NCBI GenBank assembly: GCA_014382365.1
Contig: JACNJW010000040.1
Location: 15,589 to 79,588 of the forward strand
Reading direction: 5' to 3'
Origin: SAR324 cluster bacterium
GTDB taxonomy: Bacteria > SAR324 > NAC60-12
Length of the DNA: 64,000 nucleotides
Shown here: in pieces, positions 2,297 to 41,374 of the stretch
Position numbering within the stretch: the first letter of the stretch is position 1
Layout: each line of letters begins with the position of its first letter
The notes under the pieces: generated by a model
Database searches by the model: none
The model's input: the letters and a program-made list of their open reading frames with translations, nothing else
Told to the model about the DNA's origin: nothing
Position numbers and translations under genes: made by a program

Positions 2297-2300
2297 AGTT

Positions 2301-23300: not shown

Positions 23301-26300
23301 TGCTCCTCCATCTTCTAATATTAATCCGGCACTACCTACATCCAGTAAGCTACCGTTTTTGAATGTTGGAGATTTTTGAAATGTAAGATTTCCATTAGAG
23401 TAACCAAAATATGCAGCGTCAAATTGTGATGCTTTTGAAACCGTAAGGTTCATATCACTGATAGTTAAAAAGCCGCCGCTGGTTCCACCAGACTGCCAAA
23501 ATATTAATTCGCCAATTATACTTGTGCCGGAATCTGTACGTGAAATATCTGCTGAAGTGTTTATTTGAAGTGTTGTGTCTGCGTCCGTTGTGAAACCGTC
23601 CAAACTGTGAGTTCCAGCAAGTACAAGCTTTCCGCCTGAAAGATCAAGAGTATTGGCTGCCAGGCTGATATTTGCACCACTGTTTAAATTCAACATACCT
23701 GCAACGGAAAAATCTCCTATTAGATTAAATCCAGCTGAGTTTCCGACTTCAAGTTCTCCATTCGCTCCTACATTACCCCCGGAAAGCACCAATGTTCCGC
23801 CTTTGACTTCTATTTTACTTTGAGTTAAAGCCAGACTTCCAAATGAAACAATACTGGTTGAAATACCGTTTAGAACTAAATCGAAGCCTTTTGGATCAAA
23901 AGTATCAAAACCTACAGCAGAATCGAGTATGAGACTTACATCGCTCTGTAACTCTAAAGCTGTACCGCTTAGTGTTAAGGTACCTCCGCTTTTAGTAAAA
24001 TTATCTGCTACTGCCAGCGTACTGTCCTGTATTACTAATGTTCCTCCATTGACAGCACCACCTTTTTCAAAAGTTATTTTGCCTCCACTTGAAGTCAAAG
24101 TTGTTCCGGATGTGAGATCTGCAATCCCTCCAGTGAAAGTCAGATCTGCCAGGTCCGTTGCCATTGTTCCTGCTGGAGTACCTGTGTTTGTTCCACTATT
24201 ACTTGAAGCACTGAGGTCAAGTGTCAAATCTGTTGTTTCTGAGGCAAGTGTAAAAGTGAAACCTTCTAAATTCAACTCGCCTAAAATGAAACCCTGACTG
24301 CGATTCACTGTTGTATCTTCACCAAGTTTGAATGTTGTCTGGTTATTGGTCAGTACATTATCTAGAGTTACGTTGCCGCCAAGTTTCAGCGTGCCTCCGG
24401 AGAGATCAAGATTGGACCCGAGGTTCCAGCTTGTGGTACTGTTTGTTTTGAGGGTTCCGGAAACCGCATAGTCAGTTCCAATCTTCAATTCAGCACCCGC
24501 CGCATTGATTTCTCCAGCATTGGTTCCGCCCTGCTGAAATTCGAGCTTTCCCCCTGTGCCGGTAATGACACTTGCATCAATAGACGCTCCGGTTGAAATA
24601 TCCGCCCTGCCAACAAAAACAAGATCGGCACCCTGAGTGCTTAGTGTACCGGATGCAAGTGTAAAAGCATTTCCGAGTGTAAGGTCAGAGGTTACGGAGG
24701 CTAGTTTAAAATTAAAACCATTGGTATCTAAAGTTGCTGCTTCAACTGCCACCGTGCTTGCAAGCTCTGCATTGGCAGTCAGTGAAAGATTGGTATTTGT
24801 ACTTGTCCAAGAATCCGCAACATTTAAATTTCCACCAAGTTGAATCGTTGTTCCGGAAGTGCTGAAAGTTGCTCCGCTGACTGCAGTAGCACCGCCGGGC
24901 AGACTTAAGGTTCCGCCTTCGATATTAATTATTCCGGTAGTATCTGCGCTCAGACTTGAGGCAGAAAGAGTTCCGCCACTGGATGAAAGCGTTCCGGAGC
25001 TCACTGTAATTCCACCGTTGAGTGACAAATCAGCCGCGCCGCTTATAATCTGTTCTGTGGCTGCGTCAAGTGTCACTGCCTGCGAAACACTCAGTCCCGC
25101 CATTGCGTCATCCAGCGTCAAGGCAAATTCTTCCAGTTCAAGTGTGCCGATTGACAAGGTGTCGCTGTCATTGAGCGTCGTATCTCCTGACAAACGAAGT
25201 ATGCTTGTATTATCCGGAGTCACTCCGCTTAAATCCTGTGTACCCTCAATCTCCAGATTACTGCCTGATAATGTCAACGCGTTTGAGTTTGTAGTAAAAG
25301 TTGTGTTCTTGGTCTTCAGTGTTGAAGAGGAAATTGTCAACGGACTTTGCAGAACCAACGTTGACTCAGGAAGTGAGAGAGTTGAACCTTCAGCAAGACT
25401 GCCTCCGGAGTTGAGGGTGATTGTGCCTCCGCTTGAATTGAGTTTCGCAAGATTGCTCAAGTTCAACGCTCCGGCAAGTGACAAACTTCCTGCACCGGTT
25501 TCCAAAGTGATGCCGGACAAACTAAGCGTTGTATTAGCGTCAGTTAAGTTCAGCTGAGTTGTTGCTGAACCAAGAGTCAGTACCTGACCCTCCAAATTAA
25601 CACTACCGAAAGAAACAGCATTACTCGATGAAAGCGTGGTTGCAGACTGCAGTTTCAGAATTGAAGTATTACTGCTGCTGAATGTTCCGGCGTTCAGATC
25701 AAGAGTCTGGCTGACACTCAAGGTACTGTCTGTTACATCAAGTATTCCTGCTTCGCCCAGAGTCAGTCCGCCTGCAAATGAAAGCGTTCCGCCTGTGGAA
25801 GTAATTGAGCCTGAATCAAGTTGCAAAGCGCTGGAAAGCGTCAGATTAGCAGATTTGGTTTCAATTGCTGAGCCGGTCGCAGTCATTGCCAGAGGGTTCG
25901 GCAGAGTCAGGCCTGCACTGTCTTCTGCAAGTGTAAGTTTGTTTCCACTTAATTCCAGTGTACCGAAACTCAGTGGGGTATTGCTCGTTACCTCTGTATC
26001 ACCACTTAATTTAAAAGTTGTATTTGTGCCGGTTGTAAAATCATTTAAGTTGATTGAACCCCCGCTAGACTCAAGGGTTCCGGAACTAAGATCAAGCGTA
26101 CCCTGCCAACCACTCCAGTTCGAACCGGAGTTTGCCGTTAAAGTTCCTGTTATGTTTAAGGCTCCTCCAAGTTTAAGCTCAGAGTCGCTCATGTCTAACT
26201 TACCGGTGGCTCCGACAGTTCCACCTTCGATCAGATTCAGAATACCGCCGCCCTGCACAAGCTCTCCATTCAGCGTCAAGGCTCCACTCAGTTGAACTGA

Positions 26301-29300
26301 ACCATTGTCTGAAGTAAGTAAACCTCCACTTTCGATTATTAAGGAATTGTTCAGTGAAGTATCTATTTGGCCCAAATTCAACGAGTCACCATTGTCTATA
26401 TTTAATGTTGAATTGAACATCACTTCTGTTACATTACTTCCCAGTGTTAAGGCATTTCCGTTCAGGTCCAAGGTGGTGAAATCAAGACGCCCATTACTTG
26501 AGAGGGTTGTATCTCCATTCAATACTACAGAACTATTATTCAAACCATACCAACTGTCAGCCAGAGAAACTGTACCCTTTGGTTTAAAAACTGAATTCTC
26601 TAAATACAAATTACCATTGCTGAAAGTTAGTCCATCCTGCAAAATCAACTCACCGTCAAGCACTCGAATGGAAGCATTATCTGCTGAAACAGTTTTTTGT
26701 AATGTGAGCGTACCTTTATTGAAATTGATATTTCCTTGTTCGATTTGGACATCTCCGACAATGTTGAGGCTCATATTATCAACCTCTAAATAAGTACCAT
26801 TATTGCTGGAGTTGTCGTTTTCATATTGTACAGAGAGCATTTCCAGATTTCCGATGGTGTTACTACCGTAGTCGGTCCTAAAAATATGTCCGTAAGAATT
26901 AATTTGGAGCGTAGTTGCTGAAGAGGTGGTGATGCCATCCAGATTATGTTTGCTGCTCAATTCCAGACGACCGCCGGAAAGGTCTATTAGATTATCCGAA
27001 GGAGTAACATTTGCATCATGATCCAGAACCAAAGTTCCAGCAACCGCCACATTGCCCTGCAAATTCAGATTGCCGTTCCAGCCAATTTTAATTTTTCCGT
27101 TTTGGGTGACATTTCCTCCCGAAAGATTGAGTGCACCGTTTTGTATTTCTACTGTTCCATCATCAAGCGTCAAATTTCCGTTGAAACTCACATCTCCCTG
27201 ATAACTATGGATGGTCGCATTATCTTTCAGTGTTACATCACCGGAGAGAGTTAGATTTGCATCGTCAGTTTGGATACCTATGTAATGAGAGTTATTGTCC
27301 AGGTGTGTCTCAGTTAGAATATCGTTTTGATACTCATACCATTTAACAAAACCACTCGACAAAGCGGCAGAACTAGGTTGAAGCAAAATGTCTCCACCCA
27401 GAGTTAGAGTGGATGCATTATCATGCATCAGCAATCCCCAACCGTTAGGTTCATAGCTGTCAAATGTGACTGCAGATCCCGGCTCAAAAATAGTATTAGC
27501 ATTTAATCTAAGTGTGCTGGCAGAGGTAGTAAACGTACCGCCATCGTAATTCCCAAACGGTCCACCAAGTTCTAAAATACTGTTGCTCAAATCCAATTCA
27601 CTGTTTGCCCCTAAACCTCCACCTTTTTCCAGCTTAAGAGTTCCCCCTCCCATCTCCAGTTTGCCGTGTTCAAGGTAGAAAGATCGTGTCATAGTTACGT
27701 CAACCCCTTGAGCAATCAAAGCACCCACATTACTATTATTGAGAGTACCATTATCACCATAATTTGGAGCCCAAAAGCTACCTGTTGTTAAACTGGTAAT
27801 TGCTGAATTCAAAGTTAAAGTGTTGCCTTTCGCGCTTATTCCTTTAAACAAAAGGACACCGGTTTTTGTGATACCTGCGTCGCCAACCAAACCTAAGTAT
27901 GTCTCACTGTCTGTAACCACATCTGTAAAATCAAATTCCGGCCCTCCTCCAAGATCAATACCGTCTGCTAGTGTTAAAGTGTTACCATTGGTTTTCAAAA
28001 GAGAAGAGGCTCCTGTAAATTCCATCCATGAGACTGTGAGATTTGTCCTTAAATCTAAGGTTGTGTTTTCCAGCAACATTCCTGTTTCATTATCCGCGAA
28101 AGTAGTCCCTGCTGATCCTGCTTCATAAGTTACAGTTCCACCACTGGACATTATTCCTCCTGCCAGCACATTGACTGGACCATTCAGAGTCAAATCTGCA
28201 AGCCCTGTATCAAGTCCATTCTCTCCGGGATAATTAATGGTGAGTCCTTCATTAATAGTCAAATCAGTAGTTTCCGAACCCAGCTTCAACCAATGCTGGC
28301 CCAGCTCGACAGTCTTTAGTGATATTGGATTAGCACTGCTGAGTGTTGTATCAGCAGTTAGTTTAATTGTGCTTTTGTCGTCAAAAGCCATTCCGTCAAG
28401 GGACAGCGTTCCGCTCGTCTCCAAAACCCCTCCGGATGCCGCAGTTCCACCAGAAAAATCAAGAATATTGTTGTTTAGTGTAATTGTCGAAGTGTCTTTC
28501 AATTTCAAAGTTCCGGCAACACTTAAACCTGCATTCAGCACCAAGGAACCACTACTGATTTCCAGCTTGGCATCCGAAGCAATTGTGCTGACATTTCCCA
28601 AAGAAATACTACCGTCATCTACTTCAATTTCTCCTGCTGACAATGTTAAGCCACCGGATAAAGTCAGATCCGCGCTACCGACTTTGATTTTTTCGTTTTC
28701 ATTACTCAGGCTTAAAATATTACTTATAGTTAAATCAGTTGATGCCGATCCCAAAGTCAAATCATTTCCATTCAAGGCCAGTGATTGAAAACTAAGCGGA
28801 CTGTAACTAAATATACTAACATCATTAAGGAGTTTAAATTCTGTAGTCGATGAGGCCATGTTGCCGCTCAGTATATTGCTCAGATGACTGCTGAGATTTA
28901 CTTTTGAATCCGAGAGATCCATATTTCCATCTTCCAGCGTTACTCCTCCTGAAAGCGTCAGTTCAACATTTTGCAGACTTACTGTTCCTTGATTGTGCAG
29001 CAAACCGCCGACTGTAACTTGCGGGTTATCCGGAAAGTCATCATCGAGATTTTTCAATGCAACATCCGCTCTCGAATCCAGATAGAGATGCTTAACTTCA
29101 GTCTCAGTCAGTGCACGGTTATATAGGCGAAATTCGTCCAGGTTTCCACCAAAATAATTACAAAAGCATTCACCCTGTTCACCAATGTAAAGGGGTGCTG
29201 ACGTTCCACCGTTATCTATGGCAGTGATATTACTATAGTAGGGACCGTCTTCAACTCCATTAAGATAAAAATAAATGCGCAACTGTTCGCCGATATCCTC

Positions 29301-30925: not shown

Positions 30926-32608
30926 TTATTCAACCACAGAGTTTTGTAATGAACCAGTCCATTGCATCAAGTTTGAAGACAGATTATCTCCAACTGAAAC
31001 GTTGTCTGACCTCACAATTGAATTATTTTCAACCTGAATAAAAAATACTGCCTGCGGATTATTTGCTTCAGTGGTTGCAGGATTACTGTCATTTTTAAAA
31101 TTATAAGGACCATAAGTTATATTGTCGGTTATTCCAGGACCAGTCAAAACTAGTTTAAAATTCTGTACATCTGTCTCGCTGACATCTTCTACATAAACCA
31201 GATAAGTTCCATTGCCGACTTTTTGACTGTCTGTAGCCCAGACTTGAACCTCAGTATCAGAGGAACTGCTGCCGTCCTGCAACTGAACTACATCTCCAGT
31301 TTCAGAATATTTTTTGTTGGCTGCATTACTGTAAACCCAGTAACGCGAACCCCTGGTAGTATTATCAAAACTTCCATTTGTAGTTTCTTCATTGTATGTC
31401 CAATCCGGAAAATAGTATGAGTGCAGATCCGGATCCAGTCCATCTGTCCAACTGAGTGTAAAACACATGGTACTGTTGTCAACACAGGCATCATAGTTAA
31501 CTGTGCCAATTGTCTGTGTTTTTGAAACTTCATTAACCGTAAGAATCACTTGAAGTTCATTTGAACCGTGAACTAAAGGCAGGGATGAGGCTGTTGTAAA
31601 TTGAGTTGTGTAAGTCACATTATCCGAACCTTCAGTATTAGACCAACTGGAAAGAGCAATTGGTGGTGTAACATCTACAAGTGTACTGGCTCCAACCCGT
31701 TTTACCTGCATTAAGGATAATATCTGGGTTACATTGTCTTTTTGGGCAATCGGTACATTTAACACAAGTGTCCCGCTTGCAGTCGCATATGCAGATGTTC
31801 CCACTTGAGAAATGCTCATACTTTCAAAACTCAACCAATCAATATCTACATAATTCGGTGTTAATTTTACATCCAGAGTCTCTGTGGAACTGCTGACCAG
31901 AAACGTCTGATTTAAGGGAATAAATCCCTGCAAATCAACATCATAACTATATGAGTTATAAACAACATTTGAAAACACTATCGACTTACTGGCATTGTCC
32001 TCAGAACTAATCGTGAATGAACTGTTGTCAATGAGAATACCTGCAGTAGAATTAAGCTTGGCAGTACCTGTACTTCCGGGCAGCATTCCGGCACTGCTTG
32101 TGCTGCTGATTTTGAATGTAACAGTTGAATATTTTGTAGTCCAAAATTCAACAGCAACTGTTTTGGAGATAGTTTCCGAATCAATCGTAAAAATACCTGA
32201 TTCACCATATCCTCCAGGTGTAATAGTACCTGCACCCAATTCGTTCAAAGCATAAGTTTCACTAAAAAAGTAGAGGCAGAGTTTAATTTTTGTATCCAGC
32301 GGCACAACAAATTGAGCATCATAAGTATTAATGTCAACCAACGACCTGCTGTATTCAACTCCGGAATTTGCAGTAGTAGACTCACATTGAACTGCCGGTA
32401 TCAAAACTGCTAAAATTGTTTTGGCATCGCTGCTGGTCAAACTTTCTGCATACTGCGAACGACTCATTTTTCTATCTGATACGTCATCCATCCGAATCTG
32501 CAACGAAGCATAGCCGTTCGTCTCTGTTTCTACTTCTGCACAGGACACTGCAAGTACAAAAAGCAACAGCATAATAACAAAGATGTTAAGGTTGGTAGTC
32601 CGCATCAT
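30926..32608 (-). CDS. Secreted (probable lipo)protein, 560 aa, hypothetical. The signal peptide plus lipobox-like segment is LAVSC-AEVETE. A C-terminal PPC-like beta-sandwich module is present (DPDLHSYYFPDW...GNGTYLVYVEDVSETDVQNFKLVLTG). It lies immediately upstream of the giant gene.
   Basis: ORF 30926..32608 (-). N-terminal MMRTTNLNIFVIMLLLFVLAVSCAEV fits the Prosite lipobox pattern. The PPC-like motifs were recognised by eye. There is no enzymatic signature. Confidence 0.65.
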   Translation of the reverse strand: MMRTTNLNIFVIMLLLFVLAVSCAEVETETNGYASLQIRMDDVSDRKMSRSQYAESLTSSDAKTILAVLIPAVQCESTTANSGVEYSRSLVDINTYDAQFVVPLDTKIKLCLYFFSETYALNELGAGTITPGGYGESGIFTIDSETISKTVAVEFWTTKYSTVTFKISSTSSAGMLPGSTGTAKLNSTAGILIDNSSFTISSEDNASKSIVFSNVVYNSYSYDVDLQGFIPLNQTFLVSSSTETLDVKLTPNYVDIDWLSFESMSISQVGTSAYATASGTLVLNVPIAQKDNVTQILSLMQVKRVGASTLVDVTPPIALSSWSNTEGSDNVTYTTQFTTASSLPLVHGSNELQVILTVNEVSKTQTIGTVNYDACVDNSTMCFTLSWTDGLDPDLHSYYFPDWTYNEETTNGSFDNTTRGSRYWVYSNAANKKYSETGDVVQLQDGSSSSDTEVQVWATDSQKVGNGTYLVYVEDVSETDVQNFKLVLTGPGITDNITYGPYNFKNDSNPATTEANNPQAVFFIQVENNSIVRSDNVSVGDNLSSNLMQWTGSLQNSVVE

Positions 32609-32713: not shown

Positions 32714-33739
32714 CTAACGGTTCGTGAATGTCATTCCTATAATGATGGTTTTACTTGTTGCGGCATCAATAGCATTTTCCGCATTATTAACCATGGTTTC
32801 TAATTCCTCAAGACGATCCAGTTGTTCCAGTAATTCGCCTTCTGCGTCTGCTTCTTCTTCAAAGACTGGTGCTGCATCAGTATTGTTCAGTCGCTTCTGA
32901 ATAGACCCTACAGGTTCAGACTGACCAAACTGCACCTCTTGAAAACTAGCAGTACCATCTGCTTGGGCAATTTTATCTCTTTCCTCAGGTGAAACAGTAA
33001 CAGGAGCAGACGGACCTGAACCTTCACGCACATGTGAAACCTCGTTTGCAACAACTGCAATTTCATAATCCGGAACTTCTGGAGATGCAAGCGAGACCTC
33101 ACCGGATAAAGCCAGCAAATTTGTTGAATCTCCACTTGTGGCAACCACGAAATCAGTTCCTTTAACTCCTATAATTGCTGTGACTGTCCGGACATTAAAT
33201 CTCTTTTTTTTACGCTTCAGTTTAGTTTTTGTAAGTTTTGCCAGGTTACCCTTTAATTTTTCGCCAAAATTTACATTCGCTTTGTTTTCCACAGCTTGTT
33301 CTTTTTTAGTCTTTTGCTTTACTTCTCCACTGCCTGATGTTTCTGCAAGAGGTTTGACACTGAAGTTTCCTTTGCCTGTCAAAAGGGCCATGTTGTTTTG
33401 TTCTGCAGAAATATCATCCAGTTTAAAAAAACTGTGAGAAAATAATTTTACTGTGTTATCTCTGTTTTTTAAATAAAGTGAAATCTGGGTGCCCTTACCG
33501 GTTTGTAAGCGGTCATTAGCCTGCAGCAGATATGTTTCACCAACTTTTTGTAAAAAAACACTTTTTCCATTACGAATCAACTTAACTCTGCCGGCATGCA
33601 ACTCCAGAGAATTCTGAACTGCACCTGCAGAAGACTGAAATAACAACAGGCAAAAGCAGGTAATTGCCAGCGAAAGTAAAATTATCTGTTTTTTGATTTG
33701 GTAAAACATTTTTATTCTCAACAATTTTAGAACATCCAA
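32714..33739 (-). CDS. FecR-domain periplasmic or membrane-anchored protein, 341 aa. It has an N-terminal signal or TM anchor, a central FecR-like beta domain (...TVTAIIGVKGTDFVVATSGDSTNLLALSGEVSL...), a Lys-rich linker and a C-terminal coiled coil (LEQLDRLEELETMVNNAENAIDAA).
   Basis: ORF 32714..33739 (-). The GxxGTxFxV motif is typical of the FecR/PF04773 fold. It overlaps the upstream 416-aa gene by 13 nt, which implies translational coupling. Confidence 0.65.
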   Translation of the reverse strand: MDVLKLLRIKMFYQIKKQIILLSLAITCFCLLLFQSSAGAVQNSLELHAGRVKLIRNGKSVFLQKVGETYLLQANDRLQTGKGTQISLYLKNRDNTVKLFSHSFFKLDDISAEQNNMALLTGKGNFSVKPLAETSGSGEVKQKTKKEQAVENKANVNFGEKLKGNLAKLTKTKLKRKKKRFNVRTVTAIIGVKGTDFVVATSGDSTNLLALSGEVSLASPEVPDYEIAVVANEVSHVREGSGPSAPVTVSPEERDKIAQADGTASFQEVQFGQSEPVGSIQKRLNNTDAAPVFEEEADAEGELLEQLDRLEELETMVNNAENAIDAATSKTIIIGMTFTNR

Positions 33740-34977
33740 ATATATTGCAGTATCAGTTGATTCTCCTGAAAGGCCCGTGTTGCATCATTTGAAGCCTGTT
33801 TTAATTGTTTCAAGTCTATACCTACTATAGTCGCTTGACTGTATGCATATTTACAATTTAATGTCATTTCATCCTTTTTATTCTGTAAAACAACATTAGT
33901 TGCCGGATCAGCACTTTTATATTGCTGATTATTATTTTGAATATTCAGACCAAAGACCCAGGGAGTCCAGGAATAAGAAGCTCCGGCGTCAATCAGTGTC
34001 GACTGATAATCTTTGCTGGCAGTCTTAAATTTTGTCGTTTGTGAATCCCAGCGTAATTTAAATCTAAAATCCTGCCAGCGCATCTTTGCTCCTAAAGAAA
34101 TCAGAGTTAGTATTCCGTCTTCGGAGTTAGTTTTTACTTTGTTCTGACTGTCTAACTGCAGTTTAAAAGAAGCATCCACGAACTTTGCCCAGCGTTTTTT
34201 TGCTGCAATAAACAGAAATAGAGACTGTACATCTTCCCTGAATTCTCCAGCTTTTTTAGGATCAGTCGGATTAGCATCTTTGACACTAATCACACTCTGT
34301 CCCAAAGCGGAACTAAAATCCATTCCCAGCAGTTGTTTGTTCCTGTATTCTGTACTGAACTGCCGGAACAGGACTTCTTCAGCAACTAAGCTGCGGTTTT
34401 GCTGACGATCAAATTTTAAGACAGCTTTCAACGAAACTGCTGAATCCTTTTGCAGTTGAAAAGCGTATGCTCCAGACACAAGCAAATCATTTTTAGCAGC
34501 ACTGGTTTTTGAGCTGCCTTCCTGCACACGAAGCATGTTACTGCTGTTTGTCTGCCCCAGCATAATGACACCATTCAGCGGTGGAGGTATTTTCTTTTTT
34601 TTCTGCTTTGGTTCATAAGTTACAATAAATTCCTGTTCCTGCTGTCCTGTTTTTGTCTGCACAAAAATAGTAAAACTATTCTTGCCGGGCTTTAAATAAT
34701 ATGGTATTTCATATTCCGCCCAATCTGAATCCTCTCTCACCATTTGCGCAAAGCCGTTAACTTTGACTACCAGCAACGGACTGAAAGTACTGACTTGAAA
34801 ACGAAACCAACCTTCGGCCTGCTCTTCCTTTCCGGGCGAAGTCCGAAAAACAAGTATCTCTTCCGGAAGTTCCAGTCCCTGCTTGTTATCTTCAGTCTGA
34901 GCCTGTACAACACTAATTCCCTGTAGAAAAACTATAATCCAGATTAAGACACAGACCCTCATGCTAAAATGAAACAT
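33727..34977 (-). CDS. Secreted protein, 416 aa, probably an outer-membrane protein. It has a signal peptide, an N-terminal Ig-like beta-sandwich region, a poly-Lys/Pro linker (KQKKKKIPPP) and a ~280-aa C-terminal domain ending ...LILQYIWMF (C-terminal Phe, a beta-barrel-type signature).
   Basis: ORF 33727..34977 (-). The N-terminus is MFHFSMRVCVLIWIIVFLQGISVVQAQ. The terminal aromatic residue and alternating pattern suggest an OMP. The gene is 8 nt downstream of the MotB-like gene. Confidence 0.6.
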   Translation of the reverse strand: MFHFSMRVCVLIWIIVFLQGISVVQAQTEDNKQGLELPEEILVFRTSPGKEEQAEGWFRFQVSTFSPLLVVKVNGFAQMVREDSDWAEYEIPYYLKPGKNSFTIFVQTKTGQQEQEFIVTYEPKQKKKKIPPPLNGVIMLGQTNSSNMLRVQEGSSKTSAAKNDLLVSGAYAFQLQKDSAVSLKAVLKFDRQQNRSLVAEEVLFRQFSTEYRNKQLLGMDFSSALGQSVISVKDANPTDPKKAGEFREDVQSLFLFIAAKKRWAKFVDASFKLQLDSQNKVKTNSEDGILTLISLGAKMRWQDFRFKLRWDSQTTKFKTASKDYQSTLIDAGASYSWTPWVFGLNIQNNNQQYKSADPATNVVLQNKKDEMTLNCKYAYSQATIVGIDLKQLKQASNDATRAFQENQLILQYIWMF

Positions 34978-34985
34978 AGTTTGCC

Positions 34986-36557
34986 TTAGCCTTCATCAGG
35001 ATCCGGAAAAAATTTTCTGGTTCGTTCTTTTTTTACAGGCCTCGTAAATATTAGATCTACCCGCCGATTTGCTTTGCGTGCAGCTTTTAACTCTTTCCCG
35101 CTTTTCCGCTTACCATCCTCAGATAGATATGACTTTTTAGGTCTGGTTTCCGCATAGCCGGAAATTGCAATTCTTTCCGGATTAAAGCCGACTTTTTCCA
35201 TCATTAGTGTGGCGACTACAGTGGCCCGCACCGTACTCAGTTCCCAATTATTCCTGAATTTACTTTTTTTTCTGAGAGGGACATCATCCGTATGTCCATC
35301 CACCCTGATTGCATCTCCTTCCAATTCATAACGATCACGGATTTCACTCAGAAATTGCTGTAATTGCACTTCTACTTCCTGCACAATTGCTGCTCCTCCG
35401 CTGGGAAACAGGAAGCTGGACGGTAGAGAAAGGATACAACGTGATTTACTTGCATTGAGTTCGAAGGAGGCAAAATCTTCATTTTCACGTAAAAAACGAT
35501 TAATTCCACTACAGTCCTTCATTTCCTGTGCACCAATGATGGTATTGACTTGTTTTGAGATACGACCTGTTTCTGCATTTTTAATGGCGAGAGCATCCAT
35601 TTGAACAACCAATGTGCGCGTAGCATATAAAGGAACCTCGTCTTGCAAGACTTCCATTTCCACCGTACCTTTTTCAGTATAGGGATAGATCTTAATCGTA
35701 GCACCATCCATGAAACGAAAGTCTTTTTTCTCCTTGGCAGTTCCAGCAAATTTAATTGGAATTTCTGTTATTACACCACTGACTGGTGAAATTTTAGCAG
35801 TGATATTTGAGATACCTTTGTAAAGATCCCTGCGTGAAACTTCAAAGCTAACGCTGGGAAGCGGTTCATCATCCTGGATAAAAATGCTCCTACTGACAAA
35901 GTTTCCACGCTCCACATCTCCACGTAGTTTTCCGATTTGTACCAGAATTTCTTCCGAATCCTCATAAAGTTCATCGTTGATGATACATAATGGGAAAAAA
36001 GTTTCATATTCTCCCTGTGGAATAACTGCCACTTCTGATCCCAGAATATAATCAAACTCCTGAATTTCAGTCGGATTTGCAGTTAAACCTTCACTTGTGC
36101 AAAGCTCAGCATCAACCGGCCCTCTGCGTGCGCTGCCTGAAAAGAAAAGGGGAATCCTCAAATCTTCTTCTACTTTTTCATTGAGCAGGACCACTACTTT
36201 CAACACTCCTGCAGATTCATCAACCTGACCTTTGGCCATGCTTTCAATCAGAATCTGCGTTTTGTAGAGAGATGTCTGTTTTTTACCAATCAGTGTTTCC
36301 AGTTTTTCTTCAAAATTTTCTTTGTTATCAAAGAAAACTCCCATCATCGATCCTAAACTATTGACAGTATTATCCGGAAGACGGTTTTTCAAAGTATCAA
36401 TTGTTGCAGCATTGACTACAAATCCGGTTTTCAGATCTACTTGTGGTTTGTTAAACAACGACAAATACACAAAAAAACAAAACAGCAATGTAATCAAATC
36501 AGCGAATGTCAACATCCACCTTACTTCATTAGCCTTTTTTTTCTTTCCTCCAAGCAT
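34986..36557 (-). CDS. MotB-like stator protein with an OmpA-type peptidoglycan-binding C-terminal domain, 523 aa. This is about 200 aa longer than canonical MotB because of a long periplasmic linker.
   Basis: The N-terminal TM helix with the conserved MotB Asp reads VRWMLTFADLITLLFCFFVYL (compare MotB ...YADLMTLL...). The C-terminal OmpA/MotB motif is VDGHTDDVPL...NWELSTVRATVV. It is adjacent to the MotA-like gene with an 88-bp gap. Confidence 0.85.
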   Translation of the reverse strand: MLGGKKKKANEVRWMLTFADLITLLFCFFVYLSLFNKPQVDLKTGFVVNAATIDTLKNRLPDNTVNSLGSMMGVFFDNKENFEEKLETLIGKKQTSLYKTQILIESMAKGQVDESAGVLKVVVLLNEKVEEDLRIPLFFSGSARRGPVDAELCTSEGLTANPTEIQEFDYILGSEVAVIPQGEYETFFPLCIINDELYEDSEEILVQIGKLRGDVERGNFVSRSIFIQDDEPLPSVSFEVSRRDLYKGISNITAKISPVSGVITEIPIKFAGTAKEKKDFRFMDGATIKIYPYTEKGTVEMEVLQDEVPLYATRTLVVQMDALAIKNAETGRISKQVNTIIGAQEMKDCSGINRFLRENEDFASFELNASKSRCILSLPSSFLFPSGGAAIVQEVEVQLQQFLSEIRDRYELEGDAIRVDGHTDDVPLRKKSKFRNNWELSTVRATVVATLMMEKVGFNPERIAISGYAETRPKKSYLSEDGKRKSGKELKAARKANRRVDLIFTRPVKKERTRKFFPDPDEG

Positions 36558-36645: not shown

Positions 36646-37512
36646 TCACCCATACTGTTTATCAAATTCGTCCCGCTTGTGAGGGAGAAACATTCGTAGT
36701 TCCTGAAGAATTGTGTATGGTGCCTCACGACGTGCTATGCGATGCACACTTTCACGAATCATTTCCAGCAAAATTAGATTTGATTCTTTGAGTTGCTTCC
36801 GCTTCGAAGCTATCGGCAGTAAAATCATGTTTGAAAAAATTACTCCATAAAGTGTGGTCAACATGGCAATTGACATGGCCTGCATAACTGCACGAATACT
36901 TCCGGTTTCCGCCAGCATCAGTACCAGCCCAACAATCGTTCCAACCATACCAAATGCAGGAGCTGCGGTTGCCATAAAATCCATAATCTCAATTTCTTCA
37001 TCTGCACGCTGCTCATACATGGCCACCTCAGACTTTATGATCTGGTGCAGCGACTCTTCCTCTACTTGCTCTCTGACAATCAGCCCCTCTATCCAGCGTC
37101 GCATAAATGGATTTTGCAGATTGTTGAGATCATCGTTGGTGATTCGCTTTCCACTATAGCGTTTTTCTGCGATTAGCTTGGATTGATCATATATTTCCTG
37201 AGTTGCTTCTTCAGCAATATCTGAAGAAAACACTTTAGGGATGCTGCCAAAACTTCGTAAAGCCTTTCGGTAGGGAAAGGCAATGAAAGTTGCAGAAACA
37301 GTTCCGCCCAACACGATGAAGGTAGATTTCAGGTCAAAAAATCTTAAGATTTGAATTAAATATTTGTTATATGAATCCGCTTCTCCGGAACTCTCCAGCC
37401 AAAGTGCCAGATTAGAAAATTCTGCCGGCCACAGAATTCCAGAAAGAATAAAAATTGCTCCTGATAAAAAACCGAGTGATGTTCCTAATTTATCTGCACT
37501 TGTTTGTTTCAT
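36646..37512 (-). CDS. MotA/PomA-like proton-channel stator subunit (MotA/TolQ/ExbB superfamily; closest in pattern to flagellar MotA/PomA), 288 aa.
   Basis: There are four predicted TM helices. The TM3 signature MATAAPAFGMVGTIVGLVLML closely matches PomA/MotA ...AAPAMGMIGTLVGLV.... TM4 reads SIAMLTTLYGVIFSNMILLPI, and the MotA-like cytoplasmic tail is ...MIRESVHRIARREAPY.... Its stop overlaps the start of the upstream 543-aa gene by 4 nt (ATGA-type coupling). Confidence 0.85.
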   Translation of the reverse strand: MKQTSADKLGTSLGFLSGAIFILSGILWPAEFSNLALWLESSGEADSYNKYLIQILRFFDLKSTFIVLGGTVSATFIAFPYRKALRSFGSIPKVFSSDIAEEATQEIYDQSKLIAEKRYSGKRITNDDLNNLQNPFMRRWIEGLIVREQVEEESLHQIIKSEVAMYEQRADEEIEIMDFMATAAPAFGMVGTIVGLVLMLAETGSIRAVMQAMSIAMLTTLYGVIFSNMILLPIASKRKQLKESNLILLEMIRESVHRIARREAPYTILQELRMFLPHKRDEFDKQYG

Positions 37513-39140
37513 GAATCCTTTTTATTCCAAATTTTAGCCAGTTCCTGATGCACATGACGCATAAAAACGTTGCGGTGCAGATCTCGGAGTTGATTTATCC
37601 GCTCCTTATCTGCATCATCTTCTTCACGTTGTTTTTCAAAACCCTGCTGTTGTTCTTGATAATATTGCCGTGTTTCTTCTGTATATTCCTTCATAATTTT
37701 TTCAGTCACCGATGACTCAGCATCGAGTAACAGATAAGGTACTGAGACCCTGGCTCCAGTGCTTAACCGTGAACGCTCAAAACGTTCCATCACTCTGGCT
37801 ACAAGTGCTTCCTCAATCTCTGAACTGCTTTGCAGTTCATCAAAAGACAGACTTCGTTCGCGGATTTGAGACATGGAACTGTCTGCAGTTTTTGCCAGAT
37901 CTGGATTTTTCTTCTTCAGTTCTCCTGTACTGTCAAGTATCATGTTCCATTGTTCAGCACTCACCTGTCCTGAAAGTTCTCCAATTCGGCCTAGTCCGTC
38001 AAAAGAAACCGGTAATTTTTTTGCAGTTTCAGCTAATTCCTCCGCCAGCTTTTCCAGTTCACTTGGCGAAACACTGACATCTTTCATGGCCAGCACAGCC
38101 GCCAGTGCATCCTCTGCAGGAAACTCCTTGAGGATTACAGCCATTTCACCAGGATCCATTTGACTGAAAACTGCAGCCTGTTGAGCTGGTTTTATTTTCT
38201 GCAGCAGATTAACTCGAATTCCTGCAGGCATCCTGCGAACAAAACCGAAATAATCTATTTTGCCTTCATCATCATCTGCCCCATCTTCTTCATCAGGAAG
38301 ATCCAGTTCCTCTTCTTCCTCCTCTGTTTCCGGTGCCATGCTTTCAATAGCAGTTGCAACTTTTCCAAGTGTAGACTGTAAAGGATGTTCTTTTTCCTCT
38401 TTCTCACGAGTACTGCGGGAGACAAAAAAGAAGAGGGCAAGGGTCAACAACAACAGAACTCCAAGTGTGCCAATTATGGCCCATTGAGCAGGTGTAATTG
38501 CTTCAGTACCTTCAGGCACATATTCAGGAATTAACTGCTCCACTCCCAGCATTTCATAACCTGCTGGAAATTCTGCACTTATTGCTGCTGCCTGTTTCAG
38601 CATTTCCTGTGCTGCAACCGGTTCATCAAGATTTAAATTTGCACGTGCACCAACCAGTAAATTTACATATTCAACCAGTTTTGCAGAAAAATCCGGCCGC
38701 TCGATTTGTAGTTTTTCTATAACAACTGACTGTTCAAAACGGTCCTGAGATTTTAATTCAGTAATTTCTGAACGTATCCGCATTTCCACTTGATCTAAAT
38801 TTACTGCATCGTTGACCGTTAAAATTATACTGCGGTAATTGAAGACTACTTTCACGTCATTTTCACTAGTAATAATTTTCACTCCAGGAAGCAGATCACT
38901 GTCTTTTTTTACAGGTGTATTATCCAAAACTGAATGCATTACTACTGAAACGTCAATATATTTTTCAGCTAGAGTTTTACGCAGAATTTTATGAATCCGT
39001 TCACGCATCTCCGGTTCCGGCCGGCTGCGACTTAAAATTTCCGCCTGACAGTAACTAATACTGAGGAAAATGAAAACCAGGCTGCAGCTTATAATGCTTA
39101 GAATTTTTTTGTTCATAATGTGGTATGTGTTCATGGACAA
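37509..39140 (-). CDS. Bitopic inner-membrane protein with a cytoplasmic FliG/MgtE_N-like helical repeat, 543 aa. It has an N-terminal signal or TM1, a ~190-aa periplasmic domain and TM2 (WAIIGTLGVLLLLTLALFFFV) followed by positive charges. The cytoplasmic part starts with an acidic stretch (EEEEEELDLPDEEDGADDDEG). A FliG-like ARM-type segment follows: LQKIKPAQQAAVFSQMDPGEMAVILKEFPAEDALAAVLAMKDVSVSPSELEKLAEELAE. The C-terminus is coiled-coil and charged.
   Basis: ORF 37509..39140 (-); an alternative start at Met9 (39116) is possible. The FliG-like assignment comes from my pattern match to the FliG middle/C-domain repeat (...L..EHPQTIALvLSyLdP.kAAeVLs.LPeELradVayRIAtl.rVSPEvleEVE..LE...). It needs HHpred or structure prediction. 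The gene is translationally coupled to the MotA-like gene. Confidence 0.6.
   Translation of the reverse strand: MSMNTYHIMNKKILSIISCSLVFIFLSISYCQAEILSRSRPEPEMRERIHKILRKTLAEKYIDVSVVMHSVLDNTPVKKDSDLLPGVKIITSENDVKVVFNYRSIILTVNDAVNLDQVEMRIRSEITELKSQDRFEQSVVIEKLQIERPDFSAKLVEYVNLLVGARANLNLDEPVAAQEMLKQAAAISAEFPAGYEMLGVEQLIPEYVPEGTEAITPAQWAIIGTLGVLLLLTLALFFFVSRSTREKEEKEHPLQSTLGKVATAIESMAPETEEEEEELDLPDEEDGADDDEGKIDYFGFVRRMPAGIRVNLLQKIKPAQQAAVFSQMDPGEMAVILKEFPAEDALAAVLAMKDVSVSPSELEKLAEELAETAKKLPVSFDGLGRIGELSGQVSAEQWNMILDSTGELKKKNPDLAKTADSSMSQIRERSLSFDELQSSSEIEEALVARVMERFERSRLSTGARVSVPYLLLDAESSVTEKIMKEYTEETRQYYQEQQQGFEKQREEDDADKERINQLRDLHRNVFMRHVHQELAKIWNKKDS
37990..38250 (-). other. FliG/MgtE_N-like helical repeat segment within the 543-aa protein (approximate coordinates).
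   Basis: Residues about 300-380, with the motif IKPAQQAAVFSQMDPGEMAVILKEFPAEDALAAVLAMKDVSVSPSELEKLAEEL. Confidence 0.5.
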
Positions 39141-39485
39141 GCAATATTTTGGTGGTGAAAATATTTGTTTTCAGTATATTTTCAGCTAATTTAATCTCTC
39201 ATTAACCCTCTTTATTACGCTTTGACGGAAGATTTGTCAAGCATAATTACATGCCATTGTTAGTAAAATTTGTCAGGCAGATCAATTTTTTTACAGATTT
39301 TAATTATATCCCTTTCATCTGCCAACAATAATATTATTTTTTTATTTTCTGTTAGATATTCGTTGCAAATTAAAGACATCTCAGTTAGTCTTGGTCTTTA
39401 GTCATCTTGCATAATTTGCCAATCTGCGTAAAAGATTGTATTCCTCAAATAAAAAATGTCTGGAACAATCTTAAAAGGTACTCAC
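39141..39485. promoter_or_regulatory. AT-rich 345-bp divergent intergenic region. It lies between the minus-strand motor/adhesin array (starting at 39140) and the plus-strand pal-like/tolQ/tolR/lpxB/tldD array. Divergent promoters are likely. It contains a 9-bp direct repeat ATTTGTCAR (39232-39240 and 39268-39276).
   Basis: The position between divergently oriented first genes, the AT richness and a direct repeat seen by eye. No consensus sigma70 boxes were confidently identified. Confidence 0.3.
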
Positions 39486-40685: not shown

Positions 40686-40693
40686 ATACATAA

Positions 40694-41374
40694 ATGGATT
40701 TTTTATCTCTCCCGTTTACTACTGATTTCAGTAGTATTGCCTTTAGTGTTCTTGCAGTGCTTTTTGCCTGTTCTGTGATTGTCTGGATCACGTTGTTCAT
40801 GAAGTTTTTCAGCCTTATCCGGGCAAAGTTTCTTCAGTCACGTGCCCTAAAACTACTGGAAAACACAAAACGTGTTGATGAACTACGCTTGCGGTTCGCA
40901 AAGATGCCCAATAATCCGCTCCAGGAAATGTTCACACTTGGAGATCGGGAACTTAAGAGGTTCCTTAAATCAAATCCTGCATCAGATTATGGCCACCGCC
41001 GGGAATTAATGGACCGACTGGAAAGGATGCTGGAAGCTCGAATTTTGCTGGCAGAGAAAGATCTAAATGCCGGCCAGGCTCTGCTGGCAACCATCGCTGT
41101 CACATCTCCGTTTATTGGTTTATTTGGCACTGTGATTGGTGTAATTAACACTTTCATGAGTATTTCTGAGTTCAATTCAGTTGATCTGTCTGTGATCAGT
41201 CCAGGCATTGCTGAGGCGCTTGTAGCTACTGCGGCCGGTTTGTTTGCGGCAATTCCTGCTACTTTAGGCTACAACCTCTTTCGTGCAACGATCCGGGGAA
41301 TGACTGAGACAATGGATTATTTTGCACTGCAACTTCTGCATCACCTTCAACAGCATTTGCTGCCAAAAAAATGA
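40694..41374 (+). CDS. TolQ/ExbB-family proton channel (MotA/TolQ/ExbB family), 226 aa.
   Basis: It has three TM helices with the signature TIAVTSPFIGLFGTVIGVINTF. It is adjacent to an ExbD/TolR-like gene and a Pal-like gene. Confidence 0.85.
   Translation: MDFLSLPFTTDFSSIAFSVLAVLFACSVIVWITLFMKFFSLIRAKFLQSRALKLLENTKRVDELRLRFAKMPNNPLQEMFTLGDRELKRFLKSNPASDYGHRRELMDRLERMLEARILLAEKDLNAGQALLATIAVTSPFIGLFGTVIGVINTFMSISEFNSVDLSVISPGIAEALVATAAGLFAAIPATLGYNLFRATIRGMTETMDYFALQLLHHLQQHLLPKK

What the first reader, a model, noticed from the sequence alone, without database searches (positions are those of the whole stretch)
37990..38250. FliG/MgtE_N-like armadillo-type repeat in a non-flagellar membrane protein
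The motif spacing L..I.P...A.V.S.MDP.E.A..L.E.P.E.A...VLAM..VS.SP.ELE.L.E.L mirrors the FliG middle or C-domain repeat (...HPQTIALvLSyLDP.kAAeVLs.LPeEL..dV..RIAtl.rVSPEvleEVE..LE...) almost position for position. An upstream poly-acidic stretch precedes it; FliG uses conserved charged residues to engage MotA. The module is tethered to the membrane by TM2 rather than sitting on an MS ring. That would make it a minimal, non-flagellar rotor or track element.
Basis: partly seen in the sequence, partly recalled or inferred. Interest (0 to 1): 0.85.

Follow-up and report, generated by a model that had tools for sequence, protein, structure and literature searches.

The report
Membrane-anchored FliG homologue with MotAB
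A SAR324 marine bacterium encodes a membrane-anchored relative of the flagellar rotor protein FliG, joined to its own flagellar-type MotA/MotB ion motor in an operon with outer-membrane proteins and a 9,479-residue surface protein, so flagellar motor parts may be reused here for a non-flagellar job.

Summary
Window 37990-38250 (minus strand) encodes residues 297-384 of a 541/543-aa protein (39134/39140..37509). That stretch is a genuine FliG-middle-domain fold:
- A family profile hits T. maritima FliG at E=4e-8, against 0.19 for MgtE.
- hhalign probability 95%, aligned to E. coli FliG residues 105-278.

Homology covers FliG_M, the Gly linker, ARM_C, the MFxF-like hinge and the first helices of FliG_C. 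It does not demonstrably include the torque helix. The FliM-binding EHPQR motif and the FliG_N domain are absent.

In place of FliG_N there is a signal/TM1 segment, a periplasmic α-β-β-α-β (RBM/KH-like) domain, TM2 and an acidic disordered linker. This is a FliF–FliG-fusion architecture, as reported for Chlamydiaceae.

The gene overlaps by 4 nt a divergent flagellar-type MotA. A MotB follows, with plug, TM Asp, a ~230-aa insertion and an OmpA domain.

This trio is conserved in SAR324 and in a distant 'Deltaproteobacteria bacterium TL4'. In both it is linked to a giant surface protein and its outer-membrane partner.

Best reading (~0.55): the rotor/receiver of a non-flagellar, ion-driven envelope machine. 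Main rival: a flagellar stator accessory. This is a new variant of a known kind.

The parts
37509..39134 (-). Gene X: a 541-aa membrane-anchored FliG homologue. The mechanical ORF starts at TTG 39140; the likely start is ATG 39134.
   Evidence: It is 100% identical to an NCBI SAR324 MAG protein named 'flagellar motor switch protein FliG'.
39042..39134 (-). N-terminal signal peptide or TM1 (res ~3-33; ...SISYCQA|E).
   Evidence: Read from the sequence. AF2 helix 2-28.
38724..39014 (-). Periplasmic α-β-β-α-β domain (res ~43-139), RBM/KH-like.
38412..38492 (-). TM2 (res ~217-243), followed by basic residues.
   Evidence: Read from the sequence. AF2 helix 215-241.
38337..38390 (-). Juxtamembrane helix, nearly invariant across the family: EHPLQxTLGKVATAIExM (res 251-268).
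   Evidence: Invariant columns in A1 and A2, and 'ENHPL' in the TL4 homologue. Its function is unknown.
38253..38336 (-). Acidic disordered linker (res 269-296).
   Evidence: pLDDT 30-40. Composition read from the sequence.
38016..38246 (-). FliG_M-like armadillo domain (res ~299-375). This is the finding itself.
37857..37997 (-). Gly-linker (FDGLGR) and ARM_C-like helices (res ~382-428).
   Evidence: HMMER and hhalign alignments to FliG.
37680..37853 (-). MFxF-like hinge (SLSFDEL) and the first helices of a FliG_C-like domain (res 430-487).
   Evidence: Aligned to T. maritima FliG 'MFVFEDI...ALKGASDELKEKIFKNMS' and to E. coli FliG up to residue 278.
37512..37679 (-). Highly charged, highly conserved predicted long helix at the C-terminus (res 488-543). 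It sits where the FliG torque helix would be, but homology is not shown.
36646..37512 (-). MotA/PomA-type stator A subunit (288 aa). Its start overlaps the stop of X by 4 nt.
   Evidence: Pfam MotA_ExbB 3e-18. NCBIfam MotP/PomA/MotA full-length matches, but below the equivalog cut-offs. PDB hits are flagellar stators only, 1e-23 to 8e-7.
34986..36557 (-). MotB-type stator B subunit (523 aa). It has a plug, TM Asp20, a ~230-aa insertion (Calx-beta-like) and an OmpA-like peptidoglycan-binding domain.
33727..34977 (-). Predicted outer-membrane β-barrel protein (416 aa, ends ...IWMF).
   Evidence: Weak Porin_4 hit. Sequence. Conserved in SAR324 loci.
32714..33739 (-). Secreted protein with a FecR domain (341 aa).
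   Evidence: Pfam FecR 1.2e-8. Conserved in SAR324 loci.
30926..32608 (-). Predicted lipoprotein (560 aa, lipobox LAVSC). No known domain.
2301..30740 (-). Giant 9,479-aa surface-protein ORF (Laminin_G_3 and PKD domains; S/T/G/L/N-rich). It has a C-terminal TM hairpin.
   Evidence: Its C-terminal ~750 aa are homologous to a gene in the TL4 locus.
218..2386 (-). Predicted outer-membrane protein (about 690-722 aa, C-terminal β-barrel signature ...GFGIFF).
   Evidence: It is 30% identical (E 3.8e-76) to the 762-aa gene in the TL4 locus.

Best explanation
Gene X encodes a natural FliF/FliG-type fusion. Its parts, in order, are:
- a signal/TM1 segment;
- one periplasmic RBM/KH-like domain plus a helical hairpin;
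- TM2;
- a flexible acidic linker;
- a cytoplasmic FliG homologue made of FliG_M, ARM_C and a partial FliG_C.

X is made together with a dedicated, divergent flagellar-type MotA5B2-like ion channel.

Proposed mechanism (inferred):
- Ion flow through MotAB turns the MotA ring around the peptidoglycan-anchored MotB.
- MotA's cytoplasmic domain pushes on the FliG-like C-terminal region of X.
- X may polymerise into a ring or a chain, through ARM_M/ARM_C stacking and its RBM-like domain.
- X therefore rotates or is driven laterally in the inner membrane.
- Its periplasmic domain passes that motion on to the co-encoded envelope proteins: the FecR-domain protein, the lipoprotein and two outer-membrane barrels. 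These handle the giant 9,479-aa surface protein, for deployment, tensioning or movement (adhesion or gliding).

Shown: the homology, domain order, topology logic, gene linkage and its conservation.

Inferred: the MotA-X contact, oligomerisation, transmission of motion and the output function.
For: - FliF-like topology: the periplasmic αββαβ domain has FliF, PrgK and EscJ among its structural hits.
- The stator is flagellar-type. MotA aligns full-length only to flagellar stators, and an acidic pair aligns to PomA E96/E97. MotB has a plug (2e-10), a TM Asp, and a PG-binding domain closest to MotB/PomB.
- Both stator subunits fall far below every NCBIfam flagellar equivalog cut-off (127 against 237-394 bits; 103 against 259), and MotB carries a ~230-aa insertion. 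This points to a specialised paralogue.
- X and MotA overlap by 4 nt, and no terminator lies between the genes.
- The order X>MotA>MotB>OMP>FecR>lipoprotein>giant is kept in 6 SAR324 loci at 47-80% identity.
- In the distant TL4 locus (X 24% identical) the trio again sits beside homologues of the giant protein's C-terminus (E 1.5e-35) and of the 722-aa OMP (E 3.8e-76).
- No flagellar genes lie in the window.
- Precedents: the Chlamydiaceae FliF-FliG fusion in a non-flagellate (10.1101/023564), and the MotAB-like SiiAB working with the giant adhesin SiiE (10.1101/641415).
Against: - The torque helix and its charged residues are not demonstrably conserved. The C-terminal 105 residues alone show no similarity to FliG 243-331, and the AF2 confidence there is ~50.
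- The MotA loop charges that are invariant in SAR324 are absent from the TL4 MotA.
- The RBM assignment rests on a medium-confidence model. Its hits are mixed with KH and OsmC folds, with no sequence support.
- SAR324 genomes carry many flagellar genes (23/32 KEGG; PMC4749706). I could not check whether a second, canonical motAB/fliG set exists in the same genome.
- There is no experimental data of any kind.
Confidence: 0.55

Rival explanations
1. Flagellar accessory. The MotAB pair is the ordinary flagellar stator of SAR324 (or one of several). X is then a stator-associated scaffold, parking site or brake: a membrane-tethered FliG decoy that binds idle MotA. The neighbouring envelope and giant-protein genes would be functionally unrelated.
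For: - SAR324 assemblies encode most flagellar assembly genes, and these are scattered around the genome (PMC4749706; PMC4782131; PMC9031357).
- The stator is clearly of the flagellar (plug-bearing, PomA-like) type.
- Annotation pipelines call X 'FliG'.
Against: - Linkage of X-MotAB with homologues of the giant protein's C-terminus and the 722-aa OMP recurs, in a rearranged order, in the very distant TL4 locus.
- MotA and MotB score far below the flagellar equivalog cut-offs, and MotB carries a 230-aa insertion.
- X has its own periplasmic domain and lacks the FliM-binding motif.
- There are no flagellar genes within 64 kb.
Confidence: 0.22
2. TonB/TolA-like energy transducer. X docks to MotAB mainly through TM2, as TonB does with ExbBD. 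X's periplasmic domain is the energised arm that acts on outer-membrane proteins. The FliG-like domain would be only a cytoplasmic docking or regulatory module, and nothing ring-shaped rotates.
For: - X is a bitopic or hairpin inner-membrane protein with a periplasmic domain.
- Outer-membrane barrels and a FecR-domain protein are co-encoded.
- All 5:2 motors other than the flagellar one work in this way (PMC12505986).
Against: - The stator is of the flagellar type, with the full cytoplasmic torque-generating region.
- X's cytoplasmic part is large (~290 aa), highly conserved and FliG-homologous.
- The periplasmic part is short (~180 aa) and unlikely to span the periplasm alone.
Confidence: 0.15
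3. MgtE_N-type cation-sensing or regulatory domain. The helical repeat plus the acidic stretch would bind Mg2+/Ca2+ and regulate the channel, with no mechanical role.
For: - MgtE_N is the best single Pfam hit.
- An acidic linker lies next to the domain.
- A Calx-beta-like segment is present in MotB.
Against: - Homology extends through ARM_C and the MFxF hinge, which MgtE lacks.
- There is no CBS domain and no MgtE membrane domain.
Confidence: 0.05
4. Chance resemblance of a generic helical repeat or coiled coil.
For: - The window protein alone is below Pfam thresholds.
- A single-sequence hhalign to E. coli FliG was insignificant.
Against: All family-level sequence and structure tests are significant, and the top hits are FliG chains in each.
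Confidence: 0.02

Closest known systems
FliG, the flagellar rotor/switch protein (T. maritima 1lkv, A. aeolicus 3hjl, H. pylori 4fq0/3usw, Salmonella C-ring 8umd)
   Same: - Gly linker, ARM_C, an MFxF-like hinge (SLSF) and the first C-domain helices.
- Encoded next to a PomA/MotA-type stator.
   Different: - No FliG_N domain. The protein is instead fused to TM helices and a periplasmic domain.
- EHPQR is not conserved (IKPA...A).
- The torque helix is not demonstrably conserved, and the C-terminus is predicted as one long charged helix.
- There is no fliF/fliM/fliN context.
Chlamydiaceae FliF-FliG fusion protein (Bergeron, bioRxiv 10.1101/023564)
   Same: - Signal/TM1, a shortened periplasmic region with 1-2 RBMs, TM2, and a cytosolic domain homologous to FliG_M.
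- Found outside a complete flagellar system.
   Different: - The chlamydial protein is ~330 aa and has no reported MotAB partner.
- The SAR324 protein is 541 aa, extends into ARM_C and partial FliG_C, and is translationally coupled to MotAB.
- A direct sequence relationship was not tested here.
Engineered or spontaneous FliF-FliG fusions of Salmonella and Vibrio (e.g. PDB 8z4d)
   Same: They show that a covalently membrane-tethered FliG can still be driven by MotAB/PomAB.
   Different: Those fusions keep full FliF and full FliG within a complete flagellum.
SiiAB with the giant adhesin SiiE (Salmonella SPI-4)
   Same: A MotAB-like ion channel is encoded with, and needed for the function of, a giant non-fimbrial adhesin (10.1101/641415, PMC6272769).
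   Different: - The Sii system uses a T1SS (SiiCDF) and has no FliG-like partner.
- In this operon, Pfam found no ABC-transporter, membrane-fusion or TolC family in any scanned product.
GldLM/SprB gliding motor of Bacteroidota and AglRQS-Glt of Myxococcus
   Same: The concept is the same: a 5:2 ion-driven motor in the inner membrane moves a very large surface adhesin through envelope-spanning partners.
   Different: - Those motors are of the ExbBD/TolQR-like (generic) type, not flagellar-type MotAB.
- Their transmission is periplasmic (GldM, GltG/J), with no FliG homologue.

Membership tests
FliG (flagellar motor switch protein) | FliG_M armadillo fold | tested here: met
   [not shown]
FliG (flagellar motor switch protein) | FliG_N domain that binds the FliF C-terminal tail | tested here: not met
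   Alignments begin at FliG residue ~101-105. Upstream of that point lie a disordered acidic linker, a TM helix and a periplasmic domain.
FliG (flagellar motor switch protein) | EHPQR motif (FliM-binding surface of FliG_M) | tested here: not met
   E125/H126/P127/Q128/R160 of E. coli FliG align to I316/K317/P318/A319/A351. Only the Pro is kept. No fliM or fliN lies nearby.
FliG (flagellar motor switch protein) | Gly-Gly linker, ARM_C and the MFxF hinge | tested here: met
   The invariant FDGLGR aligns to FliG 'VGGID/MGGVR', and SLSF[DE][DE]L aligns to 'MFVFEDI/MFLFENL'. The residues are degenerate but in register.
FliG (flagellar motor switch protein) | C-terminal torque helix with conserved charges (E. 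coli K264, R281, D288, D289, R297) | tested here: inconclusive
   The confident alignment stops at FliG 278. The C-terminal segment alone shows no similarity (Prob 0.15). A greedy alignment maps K264→L, R281→E, D288→E, D289→Q and R297→R. The region is charged and invariant within the family.
FliG (flagellar motor switch protein) | Encoded and operating within a flagellar gene set (fliF, fliH, fliM, fliN and others) | tested here: not met
   Pfam/NCBIfam scans of 25 of the 41 ORFs of at least 150 aa (the plus-strand ORFs from 51301 and 56727 onward were not scanned) found no flagellar family other than motAB in the 64-kb window. The rest of the genome could not be examined.
MgtE_N / FliG Pfam superfamily (PF03448 and relatives) | Significant match to the domain model | tested here: met
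   10/10 members hit MgtE_N (best 3.6e-7). P0122 scores 40.3 bits against a gathering score of 25.9.
MgtE Mg2+ transporter | CBS pair and the C-terminal MgtE membrane domain | tested here: not met
   No such Pfam hits. PDB MgtE scores only E 0.19-0.6.
FliF/SctJ (EscJ, PrgK) ring-building-motif proteins | Periplasmic αββαβ RBM fold between two membrane segments | tested here: inconclusive
   [not shown]
FliF/SctJ (EscJ, PrgK) ring-building-motif proteins | Assembly into a ring | not testable with these tools
   No multimer prediction or experiment was available.
Flagellar-type stator (MotAB/PomAB; 'FIT' clade of PMC12505986) | A subunit with four TM helices and the full cytoplasmic torque-generating region | tested here: met
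   Residues 54-285 align to MotP/PomA/MotA models (E 5e-37 to 1e-11). In the PDB it hits only flagellar MotA/PomA (1.2e-23 to 8e-7). However, its scores are below every equivalog cut-off.
Flagellar-type stator (MotAB/PomAB; 'FIT' clade of PMC12505986) | B subunit with a plug, the conserved TM Asp and an OmpA-like PG-binding domain | tested here: met
   MotB_plug 2.1e-10 and OmpA 8.3e-13. Asp20 sits in 'TFADLITLL'. The best PDB hits are MotB/PomB/MotS. There is an atypical ~230-aa insertion.
Flagellar-type stator (MotAB/PomAB; 'FIT' clade of PMC12505986) | Charged loop residues that contact FliG (MotA R90/E98; PomA R88/K89/E96/E97) | tested here: inconclusive
   DD aligns to PomA E96/E97, and an Arg aligns to an Arg of Aquifex MotA. 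'EKR[YF]SGKRITN[DE]D' is invariant in SAR324 but absent from the TL4 orthologue.
Zorya (ZorAB) defence system | ZorA/ZorB family membership plus ZorC/D/E partners | tested here: not met
   PADLOC: ZorA only E 1e-3. ZorB hits are limited to the generic OmpA part. No partner proteins were found.

The most novel reading that the evidence does not exclude
X plus MotAB form a self-contained minimal rotary (or rack-and-pinion) motor. A ring or chain of FliF/FliG-fusion subunits would be driven by flagellar-type stators with no flagellum attached. Its periplasmic face would power the movement or tensioning of a giant surface adhesin in an abundant ocean phylum. That would be a previously unrecognised kind of bacterial surface machine. 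It would also be a living analogue of the rotor-stator core that preceded, or was salvaged from, the flagellum.
Probability: 0.3. Interest if true: 0.9.

Novelty: new variant of a known kind. Interest (0 to 1): 0.72.

Why it matters
FliG-MotA is the textbook torque-generating interface, and it is known only inside flagella. Every other 5:2 ion motor (Exb, Tol, Gld, Agl, Zor, Sii) uses other partners.

A conserved operon that pairs a flagellar-type stator with its own membrane-fused FliG homologue, linked to a giant surface protein, would have three consequences:
- It would show that the rotor-stator couple can be redeployed as a module.
- It would give a small, tractable system (three genes) for studying stator-FliG mechanics without the other ~30 flagellar proteins.
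- It would bear on scenarios for flagellar origin, because the FliF-FliG fusion has been suggested to be ancestral (10.1101/023564).

There are also practical points. It would explain part of the 'flagellar motor genes' counted in SAR324 metabolic reconstructions. It would also flag a systematic misannotation, since these proteins are named 'FliG'.

Tried and rejected
- A single-sequence phmmer of X against PDB sequences found nothing relevant. A family profile was needed.
- hhalign of the family profile against E. coli FliG alone was insignificant. It became significant once a small FliG alignment was used.
- I spent one large protein search trying to build a diverse FliG alignment. It returned almost only Enterobacteriaceae and was of little use.
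- A search with the TL4 homologue P0147 found only itself.
- The exhaustive HMMER search over 1.84 billion representatives found only 47 hits, mostly fragments of the same family. There is therefore no wider family to exploit, and too few sequences for co-evolution analysis (EVcomplex) between X and MotA.
- hhalign of the periplasmic domain against E. coli FliF and against the N-terminus of P0164 found no similarity.
- The C-terminal 105 residues against FliG_C found no similarity.
- Zorya was rejected.
- PDB sequence searches with the 722-aa OMP found nothing.
- Supplementary tables of PMC4782131 held no flagellar gene list.
- Literature searches for membrane-anchored FliG-like proteins with MotA found none.
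- The promoter/terminator scan gave numbers near chance. It shows only that there is no obvious terminator between the genes.
Full report
**What is at the coordinates**

Window 37990-38250 lies on the minus strand inside an ORF at 39140..37509 (543 aa from a TTG).
- Orthologues begin at the third codon, so ATG 39134 is the likely start, giving 541 aa.
- The stretch encodes residues ~297-384: GFVRRMPAGIRVNLLQKIKPAQQAAVFSQMDPGEMAVILKEFPAEDALAAVLAMKDVSVSPSELEKLAEELAETAKKLP.
- The acidic run ETEEEEEELDLPDEEDGADDDEG (271-293) and a hydrophobic helix (about 217-243) precede it, as described.
- The protein is 100% identical to a SAR324-cluster MAG protein that NCBI names 'flagellar motor switch protein FliG'. 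JGI gives some orthologues the same name.

**Is the FliG resemblance real?** Yes.

Sequence evidence:
- On the window protein alone Pfam is sub-threshold: MgtE_N E=3.7e-4, FliG_M E=3.5e-3.
- All ten family members scanned hit MgtE_N, and nine hit FliG_M.
- A 46%-identical orthologue passes Pfam's gathering score.
- A profile of the cytoplasmic region (A3) searched against all PDB sequences puts only FliG chains on top: T. maritima 1lkv E=4.1e-8, 3ajc, A. aeolicus 3hjl, H. pylori 3usw/3usy. MgtE scores E=0.19.
- The whole-protein profile aligns residues 293-485 to FliG.
- hhalign against a small FliG alignment gives probability 94.9% and E=4.4e-8. It aligns residues ~296-486 to E. coli FliG 105-278.

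Structure evidence:
- AF2 models have medium confidence overall (pLDDT 62-64), but pLDDT is 80-88 across residues 299-375.
- Foldseek's 13 best PDB hits are all FliG.

**How much of FliG is there?**

Kept, in register with FliG:
- FliG_M.
- The Gly linker: the invariant FDGLGR aligns to VGGID/MGGVR.
- ARM_C.
- The MFxF hinge: SLSF[DE][DE]L aligns to MFVFEDI.
- The first C-domain helices: LLLDAESSVTEKIMKEYT aligns to ALKGASDELKEKIFKNMS.

Missing or not shown:
- There is no FliG_N.
- The EHPQR FliM-binding motif is not kept. E/H/P/Q/R align to I316/K317/P318/A319/A351.
- The confident alignment stops at FliG 278, just before the torque helix.
- The last 105 residues alone show no similarity to FliG 243-331.
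- A forced alignment maps K264/R281/D288/D289/R297 to L/E/E/Q/R.
- That C-terminal segment (488-543) is nonetheless almost invariant and very charged within the family. It is predicted, with low confidence, as one long helix.

The protein is therefore a FliG homologue but not an orthodox FliG.

**The rest of the protein**

- N-terminally there is a signal peptide or TM1 (…SYCQA|E).
- Next comes a ~180-residue periplasmic region with the order α(41-55) β(59-71) β(95-107) α(113-123) β(132-137), followed by a helical hairpin.
- This is the ring-building-motif topology of FliF/EscJ/PrgK.
- No sequence-level signal exists. 'RBM-like' is plausible but not established.
- After TM2 comes a strikingly conserved juxtamembrane helix, EHPLQxTLGKVATAIExM. 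It is kept even in the 24%-identical TL4 homologue as ENHPL.
- After that comes the disordered acidic linker (pLDDT 30-40).
- Overall the architecture is that of a shortened FliF fused to FliG-minus-N.
- Exactly such a natural fusion was described for Chlamydiaceae: ~330 aa, two TMs, one or two RBMs, cytosolic FliG_M (Bergeron, 10.1101/023564).
- The exhaustive search also surfaced an unrelated 614-aa protein (P0164) with a weak YscJ_FliF_C hit, a TM helix and FliG N/M/C domains.

**Neighbours**

MotA-type gene:
- The stop of X overlaps by 4 nt the start of a 288-aa MotA-type protein.
- It matches MotP/PomA/MotA models over nearly their whole length (E down to 5e-37).
- In the PDB it hits only flagellar stators: Aquifex MotA 1.2e-23, PomA 7e-22, Clostridium, Bacillus and Campylobacter MotA.
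- An acidic pair aligns with PomA E96/E97.
- The loop EKR[YF]SGKRITN[DE]D is invariant in SAR324.

MotB-type gene:
- The next gene encodes a 523-aa MotB with a plug (2e-10), the TM Asp (TFADLITLL) and an OmpA-like domain closest to MotB/PomB/MotS.
- It also carries an unusual ~230-residue insertion with a faint Calx-beta signal.

Assessment of the stator:
- In the scheme of PMC12505986, the plug plus the full cytoplasmic domain mark the flagellar ('FIT') type.
- Yet both subunits score far below every NCBIfam flagellar equivalog cut-off. This suggests a specialised paralogue.

Downstream, on the same strand and with no convincing terminators:
- A β-barrel-like 416-aa protein.
- A FecR-domain protein.
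- A 560-aa lipoprotein.
- A 9,479-aa ORF with Laminin_G_3 and PKD domains, S/T/G/L/N-rich.
- A ~700-aa protein with an outer-membrane C-terminal signature.

Upstream, and divergently transcribed, are pal-tolQ-tolR-lpxB. The scanned part of the remaining window, up to about 56.7 kb, is housekeeping.

**Conservation**

- An exhaustive HMMER search of 1.84 billion representatives found only 47 hits, mostly fragments.
- The genome scan found nine loci, most of them titled SAR324 or Lambdaproteobacteria MAGs and the rest generic or differently binned proteobacterial MAGs.
- The order X>MotA>MotB>OMP>FecR>lipoprotein>giant is kept in loci whose X is 47-80% identical.
- The only distant full-length relative (P0147, 24% identity) comes from 'Deltaproteobacteria bacterium TL4'.
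- It again sits directly upstream of MotA (44% identical) and of the long MotB (35% identical).
- That trio is immediately preceded by homologues of the giant protein's C-terminal ~750 residues (E 1.5e-35) and of the ~700-aa OMP (E 3.8e-76), in a different gene order.
- This recurrence is the strongest argument that the motor module and the giant-protein module work together.

**Interpretation**

I favour, at about 0.55, that X is the rotor or receiver element of a non-flagellar ion-driven machine.
- MotA, turning around the peptidoglycan-anchored MotB, acts on the FliG-like cytoplasmic part of X.
- X is possibly polymerised through ARM_M/ARM_C stacking and its RBM-like domain.
- X's motion is passed through the periplasm to the outer-membrane and giant-protein components.
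- Conceptually this resembles GldLM/SprB gliding or SiiAB/SiiE adhesion, but it uses the flagellar rotor-stator couple.
- Only the homology, topology and linkage are shown. The contact, the oligomer and the output are inferred.

Weak points:
- The torque helix is unproven.
- The MotA loop charges are lost in TL4.
- The C-terminal and periplasmic models have medium or low confidence.

The main rival, at about 0.22, is that this is SAR324's flagellar stator with an accessory or decoy protein.
- SAR324 assemblies carry most flagellar genes, scattered over the genome.

Lesser rivals:
- A TonB/TolA-like transducer reading (~0.15).
- An MgtE-like cation sensor (~0.05).
- Chance (~0.02).

**Novelty and score**

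- The FliG similarity itself is already reflected, wrongly, in database names.
- A FliF-FliG fusion has a chlamydial precedent.
- MotAB homologues serving giant adhesins have the Sii precedent.
- I found no description of what appears new here: a membrane-fused FliG homologue translationally coupled to its own flagellar-type stator, in a conserved operon with a giant surface protein.
- I rate it a new variant of a known kind, with interest 0.72.

Noticed in passing
window 2301-30740 (-): A single 9,479-aa ORF, rich in S/T/G/L/N, with a Laminin_G_3 domain near the N-terminus and a PKD domain near the C-terminus. Its last ~170 residues hold a TM segment followed by RRQ, then a second hydrophobic segment ending in a lipobox-like LVVAC, then a small W-rich domain. 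The same C-terminal arrangement (…LILSRW…LFMYACGSG…) is present in the TL4 819-aa homologue.
   Followed up: partly
window 218-2386 (-); L002 5248-7536: A ~700-aa protein with internal repeats (Y.LYWG/Y.VYWG/YLFFWG) and a C-terminal outer-membrane β-barrel signature. It has no Pfam or PDB sequence hit. It is 30% identical to a 762-aa protein next to the TL4 motor genes, and its 5' end overlaps the end of the giant ORF.
   Followed up: partly
window 34986-36557 (-), residues ~100-330: The MotB-type protein carries a ~230-residue insertion between the plug and the OmpA-like domain, with a faint Calx-beta signal. The insertion is conserved in SAR324 and in TL4 (536 aa).
   Followed up: partly
window 38337-38390 (-), residues 251-268 of X: The juxtamembrane motif EHPLQxTLGKVATAIExM is nearly invariant across the family, including the 24%-identical TL4 protein (ENHPLMG...). 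Its role is unknown. It is not the FliG EHPQR motif by alignment.
   Followed up: no
L014 1549-3393 (NCBI GCA_016927835.1): P0164 is a 614-aa protein with a weak YscJ_FliF_C-like N-terminal region, a TM helix, and FliG_N/M/C domains that include a clear FliG_C (1.2e-16). It is encoded away from any motAB or flagellar gene, and is another apparent natural FliF-FliG-type fusion.
   Followed up: partly
window 39456-41793 (+): A divergently transcribed Tol-Pal cluster (pal, tolQ, tolR) followed by lpxB. The Pal homologue is unusually long (409 aa), with a ~250-residue acidic, E/T/Q-rich low-complexity region ahead of the OmpA domain.
   Followed up: no
window 44608-47722 (-), 47755-48411 (-), 49380-50948 (-): Four sizeable ORFs (523, 518, 218 and 522 aa) have no Pfam hit at E<=1e-5.
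   Followed up: no
window 37509-39140 (-), public annotation: NCBI and JGI pipelines name this protein and several orthologues 'flagellar motor switch protein FliG'. It lacks FliG_N and the EHPQR motif and has two membrane segments. It may inflate the 'flagellar motor gene' counts reported for SAR324.
   Followed up: partly
L002 7594-9855 and 14527-19668: Alongside the X-MotA-MotB trio, the TL4 locus has a 346-aa protein with a β-barrel-like C-terminus, a 401-aa lipoprotein and a 1,713-aa lipoprotein. None shows detectable similarity to the SAR324 416/341/560-aa proteins. The composition is similar but the sequences differ.
   Followed up: no
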